Of a stretch of DNA of 64,000 nucleotides, positions 55,201-58,200 are shown piece after piece (position 1 is the first letter of the stretch; every line of letters begins with the position of its first letter). This stretch comes from Callorhinchus milii (taxonomy: Eukaryota), in NCBI RefSeq assembly GCF_018977255.1, contig NW_024704750.1, positions 6,138,001 to 6,202,000 on the forward strand, read 5' to 3'. Made by a program: the position numbers.

Positions 55201-58200
55201 GGTCGGCGGGTTTCCATGCTGCCCACAGCACAGAAACAGCCCTGGTCAAAATGGCAAATGACATTTTGTCCATCTCTACCTTGATCTTTCTGCTGCCTTC
55301 GACACCGTCGATCACCACTCTATCCTCATCCACCTCCTCTCCTCTCACCTTAACCTTCACGGTTCTGTCGTTGACTGGTTCAGGTCATACCTTTCACACC
55401 ATGTCCACCTCATCTCAACAAACGGTTTCTCCTCTAACCCCCGCACTGTCTCATGCGACATTCTTCAGGGCTCTGTCCTTGGTCCCCTCTTCTTCAGTAT
55501 CTATATGCTCCCTCTTGGTGATATCATCTGCAGACATCGGGTCAACTTCCACATGTATGCCGATGATTCTCAATTCTACCTCTCTGCCTCGACTCCAGGA
55601 CCACTGCTGTCCTGACCGAATGTTTGTCAGACATCAAGTCCCGGATGAGAGTTAATTTTCTTCAGTTGAACATTAACCAGACTGAGGCTTTCCTGATTAG
55701 CTCCCGTCAGAGCCTCATTTCAGGCGCTGACAGCTGACTATAATTGTAAGAGAAACACCTTTGATGCCAAACATCCATGGACTTCCAGCTCTCATTTGTA
55801 TGATATTTGCTCCAGTCATGGAACTCAGGTACACATGAAAATTATGCATCCACATTGCTCCCTACCATTGTGCTCGCTCCCTCCGCTCCGGCCTGCTTCA
55901 CATCACCCGCCTTGCTCGCCCCACTATTGGCAGACGGGCCTTCTGCCACTCTGCCCCCACCCTCTGCACCTCCATCCTGCAGTCCCTCAATCTTGCCCCC
56001 TCCCTTGCCACCTTCAAGATCCTCTTCTTCAACCGTACTTTTGATCTCTGCTTTTACCCCTGCCCTCCAACCACCCCAGGTCGGATCCGAAACTGTCTGT
56101 CCAGCGCCATGGGACGTCCTCCTGATGTGAAAGTGGCTTTACATCCCGTCCTTTTCCAGAGAGAGTGAGCAATTAGATAAACTGGGCATGTTCACACTGA
56201 GGGTCGATATGATTACTTTTAAGATTCTGAAGGGAATAGATAACGTAGATCATAATAAGCTGCTTTATTACTTCACTAAACTTTGCTGTTACATTACTTC
56301 AGTGAGCGAGTAGTAAACTTTGATTATTCACAGCAAGTGTTTCAGTTTCGTAATCATGACATGAAAATTCATTGCAGCGTTTTGCTGTGTCAGACACTCC
56401 TTCCTGCTTCTAAATTTTTAGATCTGAATGGAATTAAATTAATACTTGCTGCTTTCACTTTCAATCTTAGTATAAATTCGTTCGCAGCCTTGCAGCGGCA
56501 CTTGGAGTTGTTTATCCAGCCAGATCAGCAGGATCACCAAGGTGGCGATTCATCTCTCAACTAACTAATATGTCTAGTCCCGAGCTACAGCAGCTTGCCC
56601 TTGAGCTTTCAACTGCCCAGAATGAGACTAAGAAAAAGGTCTTTGTGATCTACACTGGAGGAACAATCGGCATGAAGGAACAAGAAGATGGTAAGAAAGT
56701 TGTACTTCGGAAACAGACCCACGGATGCCGGCACAGGTTAAAGTGGATTGGAGAGATTGAGTTAAATCTGTTCTGCCCTTTGCTTTGTCTTACTGCTGCA
56801 CTTGCTCTGCTCAGAGTTCATGCTCTTCTCCCACTTATGCGCAGATGTGTCAAAATTAGTTTGCTCGCCGATAGCGATTATTGGAATTTTGCACAATTCT
56901 CAATAAATATTTAAAGAAATGAATAGGTTGGTGGCCGCTTTCTCTGTGCGATTCATTCGTTCTTCTCACTACGTATATTTTGTAACAAAATTATACAAAT
57001 GCAAGTTGTTGTTGTTGCTTCTCAACAACACTGCCGCCAAAAGCAGCCTTTGCGTCTTCCAAGGTAGACTTTTCTAACATTCTCCTGCTTGGCTGGCATC
57101 CTCACCTGCACCCTCCCACATAAACTACAATTCACCAATAACTTTTTTTTCCCCCCGTGTAAGGTTCTGAGCACACACCCATTACTGCCATTTCCTTTCC
57201 AAGATTTTCAGTATACAACAGATTATTTTTTTAATGATTGTTAATCATATCTTAAAATCTCTCTTGGTTTGGCACTTCCCTCACTGTCGCGGCCAGATTA
57301 AGGGATCTAGGGGTCCTAAGGCAGATCACATTTGGGGGTTCTTCGTTGCAAAACATGCAACAGCATCTTTTTAAAATGCTTTCTTCCATGACTTCATGGT
57401 TACAAACATGTCAACTACATGATCAAAACTTAGTGTACGCCTCAAATCATACCCAATAGACAGGATTGTGAGTGCACTCAACCTATCTTAGATCATTGTA
57501 GAGCTGAGTGAGTTTTTGATGAGACTCATCTTTGAGAGCAAGCATTCACTTTCACAGACTGTTATTTGTAGTGTTAAGACCATACAAAGAGCAAGTGCCA
57601 CACTTGGAAATGTGAAGCTAACGGTAAATGCACAGGGTGTGGCTGCCTGTGCCGATGATAGCAGAACAGACAGGATTGTGAGTGCCTTTGATTTCAGCGT
57701 GCAGTGTAAAACCACTCAGGGCACTCCATTCCTGTACAGCTGCCAACTAACTGCAACATCCTGCTCTCTAGGAATAATCAAATGAATATTGTTGTCAATT
57801 AAACTCAATAAAATAACTTATAAGCTTTGAAATTAGATGTATTTTTGTTGCAAATTCGGATGACTAACCGCTTGAGTGCCAAAGTTTTAGCAAAACAGTA
57901 TTATGGAAGAGCAATTTCCTTGTGGTAAATTTAGAAAATACTGCTGGCGAATGTCTTAGGGGCAGATGGAGATTTTCCAAGTACGCAAGACTGTTTGGCA
58001 TGTGGTTTTCAGTGGAGTTGCTTCTAGATGCAAACTGCAAATATGAACTATATTGCATTTCTGTTAATTCAACATTGTTTTTTGATGAATTGCCCCAAGA
58101 AGAATATGTTGGATTCAAATGTATGACCAATCGTGGAACTAACCACTCCGTTGAAGCCTGGGATAAAAGGTGTAATAATAATAATAATAATCCTTGCATT

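What the first reader, a model, noticed from the sequence alone, without database searches (positions are those of the whole stretch)
55737..55857. A copy of TDRD9 exon 32 with its splice donor has been pasted into a deleted L2 element 4.9 kb downstream
Seen: 121 bp match 50840-50960 at 120/121 in the same orientation and include 29 nt of intron, so this is not a copy of spliced mRNA. It sits where roughly 440 bp of L2 is missing relative to the L2 at 18110-19172. It keeps the donor (AG|GTACAC) and gains a CAG just upstream (55731-55733), giving a possible 95-nt cryptic exon (55734-55828) about 0.7 kb before the ASPG ATG. Inference: a recent templated insertion during double-strand-break repair, using nearby DNA or TDRD9 pre-mRNA. 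A piece of a transposon-silencing gene is now fused to LINE sequence, so a transcript of this chimera could yield small RNAs matching TDRD9.
Basis: partly seen in the sequence, partly recalled or inferred. Interest (0 to 1): 0.7.

Follow-up and report, generated by a model that had tools for sequence, protein, structure and literature searches.

The report
Exon-intron snippet patched into dead L2
In the elephant shark, a 121-base copy of a TDRD9 exon-intron boundary fills a 440-base gap in an old, dead L2 retrotransposon just downstream of the gene; it is most likely a break-repair scar, and nothing shows that it has a function.

Summary
Window 55737-55857 equals 50840-50960 at 120/121, same strand, and this is the best duplicate in the window. 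The window is Callorhinchus milii, not human. The source is a real TDRD9 coding exon (50835-50931), fifth from last, plus 29 nt of intron.

The copy replaces about 440-444 bp of a 5'-truncated L2 (55197-56143). That L2 lies between the TDRD9 stop (54118) and the ASPG ATG (56570).

The insert looks younger than the L2. It has 1/121 changes, against 10/128 private changes in the L2 3' part (Fisher p=0.010). The L2 reverse-transcriptase part also carries a frameshift and damaged motifs. The junctions have no usable microhomology. The left one has a 2-nt filler that creates a 6-nt direct repeat, as in error-prone end joining.

Best reading: a later break in an old L2 was patched with a copy of nearby DNA or unspliced TDRD9 RNA.

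One rival is not excluded: L2 reverse transcriptase may have jumped between templates at insertion. Both L2 breakpoints coincide with the 5' ends of other L2 copies.

The "gained CAG" is native L2 sequence. The cryptic-exon and small-RNA ideas have no support. This is an ordinary kind of event, of low to moderate interest.

The parts
50835..50931 (+). Source exon of TDRD9.
   Evidence: Acceptor AG at 50833-4 and donor AG|GT at 50930-3. tblastn with C. milii TDRD9 P0004. The peptide is conserved 31/31 or 30/31 in 9 chondrichthyan proteins.
50840..50960 (+). Donor segment that was copied: exon bases 6-97 plus the first 29 nt of the 240-nt intron.
55197..55734 (+). 5' part of the dead, 5'-truncated L2 ('B'). 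It holds the reverse-transcriptase domain with one frameshift near 55595, and ends at the native L2 bases ..CAG C.
   Evidence: MAFFT with L2 copies A and S. ORFs. Best identity to any C. milii RT protein is 77% over 105 aa. There are 8 of 60 private changes at conserved columns.
55731..55733 (+). It is native L2 sequence.
   Evidence: Copies A and S carry the same CAG at the aligned position. Pyrimidine fraction is 0.61, against a mean of 0.69 for 23 real acceptors.
55735..55736 (+). Two filler bases (TG) at the left junction. With their neighbours they make a 6-nt direct repeat, 55726-31 = 55733-38.
55737..55857 (+). The inserted copy: 92 nt of exon plus 29 nt of intron. The single change is at 55758 (A>C, Thr>Pro) and is derived in the copy.
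   Evidence: 120/121 identity. All 10 TDRD9 proteins compared, including one mammal, keep Thr at that site.
55827..55834 (+). The copied TDRD9 splice donor, AG|GTACAC.
   Evidence: Identical to 50930-50937.
55858..56143 (+). 3' part of L2 B: the ORF2 C-terminus (open frame, one 12-nt in-frame deletion) and the 3' UTR. The last tail bases are missing, and a CR1-like fragment abuts it.
   Evidence: MAFFT with copies A, C, D, E and F. Private differences are 10 of 128. ORF list.
18110..19173 (-). L2 copy A, the comparator that sizes the deletion (A 18866-18427 is missing in B).
47354..48109 (-). L2 copy C. Its 5' truncation point coincides, within 1 nt, with the end of B's 5' part.
9811..10127 (+). 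L2 copy E. Its 5' truncation point lies 2-5 nt from the start of B's 3' part.
54118..54120 (+). TDRD9 stop codon. Poly(A) signals at 54225-55170 all lie before L2 B.
56570..56690 (+). Coding part of ASPG exon 1 (ATG 56570; the TGGTIGM motif; the donor follows 56690, phase 1).
   Evidence: Naming the motif as that of asparaginase is from recall.

Best explanation
An L2 LINE inserted, 5'-truncated and dead, in the 2.45-kb spacer between the TDRD9 stop codon and the ASPG start codon of the elephant shark. Much later the L2 broke. About 440 bp were lost, and the gap was closed by error-prone end joining that put in a 121-nt copy of the TDRD9 exon/intron boundary lying 4.9 kb upstream.

The template was either the nearby DNA or unspliced (nascent) TDRD9 RNA copied by a reverse transcriptase. 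The donor stayed intact. The joins were made without useful microhomology. At the left join two extra bases appear to have been copied from the L2 flank itself. The result is a neutral scar.

Shown: the anatomy, the identity, the lower divergence of the insert, and the junction sequences. Inferred: the break, the repair pathway and the nature of the template.
For: - The copy is 120/121 identical with abrupt ends, and the donor is intact.
- The two L2 parts are collinear and in the same orientation, with 440-444 bp missing between them.
- The insert is less diverged than its host. It has 1/121 changes, and that change is derived in the copy. The L2 3' part has 10/128 private differences at columns where all other copies agree (Fisher p=0.010).
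- If the insert were as old as a 5-7.8% diverged L2, the chance of seeing at most one change is 0.015-0.0006.
- The L2 RT part has 8/60 private changes at columns that are at least 90% conserved, including the conserved GVPQG stretch, plus a frameshift. It is at most 77% identical to any C. milii RT protein found.
- At the left junction a 2-nt filler completes a 6-nt direct repeat 7 nt apart. This is the pattern described for synthesis-dependent MMEJ (PMC2943611, search listing only).
- The right junction is blunt.
- The size fits insertions captured at breaks: 73-414 bp, with end-joining features and often RNA-derived (PMC5110952, parts 1-2 read).
- A reverse transcriptase was available. Window SINE copies with an L2-type tail are 92-97% alike, and L2-2_CM activity overlaps that of the SINEs (PMC5499810, passages).
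- Pol theta can also copy RNA (PMC8195485, search listing only).
Against: - Both L2 breakpoints coincide with the 5' ends of independent truncated L2 copies: C within 1 nt and E within 2-5 nt. A rough post-hoc chance is 0.002. A random break with resection does not predict this.
- The 'private' L2 differences may partly have been inherited from a diverged or defective source copy, so the age gap could be overstated.
- The L2 is not heavily decayed. Its 3' ORF part is still open, with no stop or frameshift in about 60 codons and one 12-nt in-frame deletion.
- A 440-bp loss and a donor only 4.9 kb away differ from the published break-patch insertions, which show microdeletions and distant donors.
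- The junction-repeat signal is weak. My estimate is about 0.035 for a 6-mer spanning the filler, and the shuffle test of 5-mers gave P=0.17.
- No reads, other individuals or other species could be examined.
Confidence: 0.5

Rival explanations
1. The chimera was made in one step when the L2 inserted. The L2 reverse transcriptase copied the 3' end of an L2 RNA, jumped to a piece of unspliced TDRD9 RNA made nearby, copied 121 nt, added two bases, then jumped back onto L2 RNA further upstream. This would be a double template switch during target-primed reverse transcription.
For: - All three pieces are in the same sense orientation, as this model requires.
- Both switch points coincide with the 5' ends of other truncated L2 copies (C and E), as expected if L2 RNA has preferred break or stop points (post-hoc p about 0.002).
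- Junctions that are blunt or carry a few extra bases fit end-to-end template jumping.
- Double template switches at specific sites are documented for LINEs (PMC2104539, abstract), and in vivo jumps for R2 (PMC3414825, abstract).
- TDRD9 is a germline gene (recalled), so nascent RNA would be close to the insertion site.
Against: - The insert is about 10 times less diverged than the L2 3' part (1/121 against 10/128, p=0.010).
- The RT part has damaged motifs and a frameshift. The template would therefore have to be an already defective L2 RNA mobilised in trans.
- No stable RNA structure lies next to either breakpoint in copy A.
- No target-site duplication was found for the whole element. There is only a 6-mer, about what chance gives.
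- The 6-nt repeat made by the filler is unexplained by non-templated addition.
- The known chimeras mostly carry small abundant RNAs at the 5' end, not a pre-mRNA piece flanked by LINE on both sides.
Confidence: 0.23
2. A replication-based template switch (fork stalling or microhomology-mediated break-induced replication). A stalled or broken nascent strand left the L2, copied 121 nt of DNA 4.9 kb away on the same chromosome, and returned 440 bp further on.
For: The donor is close, in cis and in direct orientation. A deletion combined with a short templated insertion is the classic product (recalled, no call). Several B-specific differences lie close to the right junction.
Against: The expected microhomology is absent at both switches. 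It is 0-2 nt, with a filler on the left and a blunt join on the right.
Confidence: 0.12
3. An assembly or sequencing artefact: the 121 bases are not at this place in the animal's genome.
For: No reads could be examined. The segment is short and 99% identical to a site 4.9 kb away.
Against: An artefact would need two chimeric joins 121 bp apart that return to the same L2 in the same orientation and order. The copy also carries its own base difference and a 2-nt filler. No gap lies nearby; the window's only two N are at 13151 and 38620.
Confidence: 0.05
4. The copy has been co-opted, either as a cryptic or alternative exon upstream of ASPG or as a source of small RNAs matching TDRD9. This is the reader's functional idea and is compatible with any of the origins above.
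For: A proven splice donor now lies in sense orientation 742 nt before the ASPG ATG. Two AGs with mid- to low-range pyrimidine tracts precede it.
Against: - The frame compatible with ASPG is closed by a stop, and no ATG follows it.
- 0 of the 4 C. milii TDRD9 isoforms and 0 of the 250 proteins fetched carry the copy-type peptide. The ASPG isoforms themselves were not fetched.
- The TDRD9 poly(A) signals lie upstream of the L2.
- Sense orientation gives sense small RNAs.
- No Rfam family matches here.
- The only base change is a Thr>Pro replacement at a conserved site.
Confidence: 0.04

Closest known systems
Class 2 templated sequence insertions (TSI/TSIP; Onozawa and Aplan, PMC5110952)
   Same: A unique sequence is copied from elsewhere and the donor is left intact. 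The size is within 73-414 bp. There is no poly(A) and no target-site duplication. Extra bases sit at a junction. Intronic or unspliced sequence is among the known templates, and the change is germline-heritable.
   Different: The donor is only 4.9 kb away in cis rather than distant. About 440 bp of the recipient were lost rather than a microdeletion. An RNA origin is not shown here.
LINE reverse-transcriptase template-switch chimeras (Buzdin and Gogvadze type; PMC2104539; R2 jumps, PMC3414825)
   Same: The pieces are in the same sense orientation. A LINE 3' part lies at the 3' side. The switch points coincide with recurrent positions in the LINE. Double jumps are documented.
   Different: The foreign piece is internal, with LINE on both sides, and is a pre-mRNA fragment rather than a small abundant RNA. 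No target-site duplication was found. The insert looks younger than the LINE.
Polymerase-theta / synthesis-dependent MMEJ junctions (PMC2943611, PMC8195485; search listings only)
   Same: The filler bases can be read as copied from the adjacent flank, making a short direct repeat across the junction. The event combines a deletion with an insertion.
   Different: As far as I recall, typical templated fillers are a few to tens of bases copied from within tens of bases. This one is 121 nt copied from 4.9 kb away.
FoSTeS/MMBIR complex rearrangements (recalled, no paper read)
   Same: A deletion with a short insertion copied from nearby sequence in cis.
   Different: Microhomology at the switch points is expected and is not seen.

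Membership tests
Class 2 templated sequence insertion (break patch) | The insert is a copy of single-copy sequence and the donor locus is left intact. | tested here: met
   120/121 identity. The donor exon is intact and conserved. There are only two copies in the window. Genome-wide copy number could not be tested.
Class 2 templated sequence insertion (break patch) | No poly(A) tail, no poly(A) signal at the insert's end, and no target-site duplication around the insert. | tested here: met
   The insert ends in intron sequence, directly joined to L2. The recipient is deleted, not duplicated.
Class 2 templated sequence insertion (break patch) | End-joining marks at the junctions: microdeletion, microhomology or added bases. 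| tested here: met
   There is a 2-nt filler on the left and a blunt join on the right. The deletion is 440 bp, which is larger than 'micro'.
Class 2 templated sequence insertion (break patch) | The donor is distant from the recipient. | tested here: not met
   The donor is 4897 bp upstream on the same strand.
Class 2 templated sequence insertion (break patch) | The insert derives from reverse-transcribed RNA. | not testable with these tools
   The intron bases exclude mature mRNA but fit both DNA and pre-mRNA.
LINE RT template-switch chimera | All parts are in the same transcriptional orientation, with the LINE 3' end at the 3' side. | tested here: met
   The last L2 tail bases are missing.
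LINE RT template-switch chimera | The whole chimera is flanked by a target-site duplication. | tested here: inconclusive
   Only a shared 6-mer was found, about what chance gives. The 3' end abuts a CR1-like fragment.
LINE RT template-switch chimera | All parts are of the same age. | tested here: not met
   1/121 against 10/128 private differences, p=0.010. There is RT-motif damage and a frameshift. Caveat: some differences may have been inherited from the source copy.
MMBIR/FoSTeS or TMEJ template switch | Microhomology at each switch point. | tested here: not met
   There is no shared sequence between the donor flanks and the L2 at either junction. Only a flank-templated filler is present.
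Exonised element / cryptic exon | Presence in transcripts or annotated isoforms. | tested here: inconclusive
   0 of 4 C. milii TDRD9 isoforms carry it. ASPG isoforms and RNA data were not examined.

The most novel reading that the evidence does not exclude
The chimera records a single retrotransposition event. L2 reverse transcriptase ran end-to-end across three RNA fragments: the L2 3' fragment, a 121-nt piece of nascent TDRD9 pre-mRNA, and an upstream L2 fragment. The L2 RNA ends lie at recurrent cleavage points that are also seen as the 5' ends of copies C and E. If so, L2 RNA in the elephant-shark germline is cut at fixed sites, for example by guided slicing, and the LINE machinery stitches the pieces together with host nascent RNA. 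Germline RNA cleavage sites could then be read from genomic 5'-end pile-ups.
Probability: 0.15. Interest if true: 0.55.

Novelty: new member of a known kind. Interest (0 to 1): 0.25.

Why it matters
This is a clean, datable example in a very slowly evolving vertebrate of a break, or a retrotransposition intermediate, being patched with a copy of nearby transcribed sequence. It places a working splice donor of a germline gene in front of the neighbouring gene's start. Events like this are a known minor source of exon-fragment shuffling. No function is indicated.

The one point that could repay work is the coincidence of both breakpoints with the 5' ends of other L2 copies. If that holds genome-wide, it would point to fixed break or stop sites in L2 RNA.

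Tried and rejected
- **Common repeat.** Rejected within the window: there are two copies only, and the source is a conserved coding exon. Genome-wide copy number could not be checked.
- **Larger, older duplication around the 121 bp.** No flank similarity was found.
- **Two independent L2 insertions.** Rejected. The 5' part has no 3' end of its own, and what follows the 3' part is a CR1-like fragment, not the rest of an L2.
- **RNA hairpins as the cause of the shared breakpoints.** Windows of 60 nt along copy A show nothing notable at either point: z -0.9 to +0.1 at the first and +0.4 to +1.6 at the second.
- **Closer L2 relatives, to date the element.** Two protein searches gave at most 76-77% identity, so no subfamily consensus could be built.
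- **Target-site duplication of the whole element.** Not found.
- **Known RNA family in the copy or the L2.** None; the 7 weak or tRNA matches in 50000-60500 all lie elsewhere.
- **Gene conversion keeping an old copy identical.** Thought unlikely for 121 bp without homologous flanks. This is inference and was not tested.
- **Exon 32 alone as a query.** Too short for the protein search, so the neighbouring exon was used instead.
- **Not used or not possible.** No supplements were opened; those of PMC5499810 (SINE/L2 alignments) might bear on the L2 subfamily.
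Full report
**Identity of the window.** The translation of the exon at 51173-51310, searched on its own, is 100% identical to four Callorhinchus milii (elephant shark) TDRD9 entries and 74-85% identical to shark and ray TDRD9. There were 10 proteins with E<=1 among 13 candidates. The window is therefore not human. tblastn with the 1362-aa C. 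milii protein places the whole TDRD9 coding region at 14981-54120 on the + strand. ASPG exon 1 starts with the ATG at 56570 and its donor follows 56690. The two single N (13151, 38620) were left as they are.

**The observation.** Window 55737-55857 matches 50840-50960 at 120 of 121 positions without gaps and on the same strand. Similarity ends abruptly on both sides. The one difference is 50861 A against 55758 C. Only these two copies exist in the window, and this is the most similar of the 17 intra-window pairs of at least 92% identity and 40 bp.

The source is a real exon. The acceptor AG is at 50833-4, the exon runs 50835-50931, the donor is AG|GTACAC, and the frame continues into the next exon at 51172. 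Its 31-residue peptide is identical in 4 of 4 C. milii isoforms and in one sawshark protein, and 30/31 in four other chondrichthyan proteins. All ten proteins compared, including a mammal, keep Thr where the copy has Pro. The single change is therefore derived in the copy. The copy holds exon bases 6-97 plus 29 intron bases. I could not verify the number '32'; it is the fifth-from-last coding exon.

**The host element.** Positions 55197-56143 are a 5'-truncated L2 on the + strand. Alignment with the other L2 copies in the window (A 19173-18110, S 483-1, C 48109-47354, D, E 9811-10127, F) shows three things:
- The 5' part runs to 55733/4.
- The 3' part resumes at 55858-61.
- The intervening 440 nt (A coordinates) or 444 nt (C coordinates) are missing.

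Between the two parts lie two filler bases (55735-6) and the 121-nt copy. The CAG at 55731-3 is present at the same place in copies A and S, so it is native L2 and was not gained.

The L2 lies after the TDRD9 stop (54118-20) and after all six AATAAA/ATTAAA signals between 54225 and 55170. It ends about 430 nt before the ASPG ATG. A CR1-like fragment abuts its truncated tail.

**Relative age.**
- The RT part of this L2 is at most 76-77% identical to any of the C. milii RT proteins found. The 'longer' search gave 1824 proteins with E<=0.001 among 1907 candidates. The 'near' search gave 717 with E<=1e-5 among 736.
- Against 20 C. milii RT fragments it is 80.8% identical to the consensus. It has 8 private changes at 60 columns that are at least 90% conserved, against a range of 0-17 in the others. 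Three of these hit the conserved GVPQG stretch. There is also an extra residue and a frameshift near 55595.
- In the 3' part it has 10 private differences at 128 columns where all other copies agree. The figures for the others are A 8/135, C 2/129, D 10/72, E 21/153 and F 21/153.
- The insert has 1/121. Fisher's test of 10/128 against 1/121 gives p=0.010. If the insert had aged at 5-7.8%, the chance of at most one change is 0.015-0.0006.
- The caveat is that part of the L2's private changes may have been inherited from a diverged or defective source copy. The L2's 3' ORF part is still open apart from a 12-nt in-frame deletion.
- At the SINE-calibrated rate for this species, 1.0-1.1e-3 per site per My (PMC5499810, passages), 1/121 corresponds to roughly 8 My, with a 95% interval of about 0.2-45 My. 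'Recent' is therefore only relative.

**Junctions.** No similarity exists between the donor's flanks and the L2 at either join. On the left, the two filler bases complete a 6-nt direct repeat (55726-31 = 55733-38). This repeat spans the last L2 bases, the filler and the first two insert bases. I estimate about 0.035 for a 6-mer repeat covering the filler by chance. The simple shuffle test of 5-mers was not significant (P=0.17). On the right the join is blunt. That region is locally repetitive, with 6 direct 5-mers against 1.45 expected (P=0.029), but it is C/T-rich L2. These features fit error-prone end joining with a flank-templated filler (PMC2943611, listing only). They do not fit microhomology-driven replicative switching.

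**An unexplained coincidence.** The end of the L2 5' part is, within 1 nt, the first L2 base of the independent truncated copy C. The start of the 3' part is 2-5 nt from the first L2 base of copy E. With 11 other copy ends over about 1270 nt, a rough post-hoc chance for both is 0.002. This is what one would expect if L2 RNA has preferred ends and the element was stitched together by reverse-transcriptase template jumps. Such jumps are documented for LINEs, including double jumps at specific sites (PMC2104539, abstract; PMC3414825, abstract). No stable RNA structure lies beside either point in copy A, and no target-site duplication of the whole element was found.

**Weighing.** The age difference and the left-junction repeat favour a later repair event. 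The shared breakpoints and the obligatory same-sense orientation favour a one-step reverse-transcriptase origin. My probabilities are:
- Later break repair by end joining with a templated patch: 0.50.
- One-step template switching: 0.23.
- Replicative template switching: 0.12.
- Artefact: 0.05.

Whether DNA or RNA was the template is open. The size and junctions resemble class 2 templated sequence insertions, which are 73-414 bp and often RNA-derived (PMC5110952, parts 1-2 of 4 read). They differ in the nearby donor and the large deletion. Reverse-transcriptase activity was plausibly present:
- tRNA-Ala-headed SINE copies in the window are 92-97% alike.
- In the paper's divergence analysis, copies of the C. 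milii SINE families that use the L2-2_CM tail range down to 0% divergence from their consensus, and L2-2_CM activity overlaps theirs (PMC5499810, passages).
- Pol theta can also copy RNA (PMC8195485, listing only).

**Function.**
- The copied donor is intact, and two AGs precede it: 55732-3 with pyrimidine fraction 0.61, above 4 of 23 real TDRD9 acceptors, and 55722-3 with 0.67, above 8 of 23.
- The frame that would fit ASPG exon 1's phase is closed by a stop at 55801-3 and has no ATG after it. The TDRD9 frame leaves the wrong phase.
- None of the 250 proteins fetched, including the 4 C. milii TDRD9 isoforms, carries the copy-type peptide.
- The copy is in sense orientation, so sense transcripts would give small RNAs that cannot pair with TDRD9 mRNA.
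- No Rfam family matches the copy or the L2.
- TDRD9's role in transposon silencing is recalled, not tested.
- The functional ideas are unsupported but also untested, since no transcript data were available.

**What stayed unchecked.** Raw reads, other individuals or species, genome-wide copies of the segment or of the chimera, the L2 subfamily consensus, transcripts and small RNAs were all out of reach.

Noticed in passing
window 9811-10127 (+), 47354-48109 (-), 55733/4 and 55858-61: Both internal breakpoints of the chimeric L2 coincide with the 5' truncation points of two other, independent L2 copies (within 1 nt and within 2-5 nt). A rough post-hoc chance is 0.002. No RNA structure explains it.
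   Followed up: partly
window 58176-58511 (-), 59492-59812 (-), 59880-60219 (+), 53748-53854, 13031-13127, 22396-22503: A young SINE family with tRNA-Ala-like heads (Rfam tRNA hits at 58424-58490, 59738-59809 and 59905-59965). Copies are 92-97% alike, and three are clustered in ASPG intron 1, including an inverted pair at 95.9%. They probably belong to the CmiSINE family that uses the L2-2_CM tail (PMC5499810).
   Followed up: partly
window 56150-56310 (+) and 60699-60983 (-): CR1-like ORF fragments. The first directly abuts the truncated 3' tail of the chimeric L2, so the last L2 tail bases are missing.
   Followed up: no
window 5011-5106: A 96-bp near-perfect palindrome (93.75% self-complementary) upstream of TDRD9.
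   Followed up: no
window 45185-45676 (-): A remnant of a different LINE reverse transcriptase, only about 32% identical to the L2-type RT proteins, inside a TDRD9 intron.
   Followed up: no
window 31460-31564 (+): A 35-codon TDRD9 exon that is present in C. milii isoform P0001 and in the Heptranchias protein but absent from the 1362-aa isoform P0004. It is probably an alternative exon.
   Followed up: no
window 9789-9810 and 10150-10158: L2 copy E has a putative 9-nt target-site duplication. Twelve extra bases lie between the duplication and the L2 start, so it too has a filled 5' junction.
   Followed up: no
window 54118-56572: Only 2.45 kb separate the TDRD9 stop codon from the ASPG start codon on the same strand, and about 1 kb of that is the chimeric L2. 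Read-through from TDRD9 into ASPG is conceivable.
   Followed up: no
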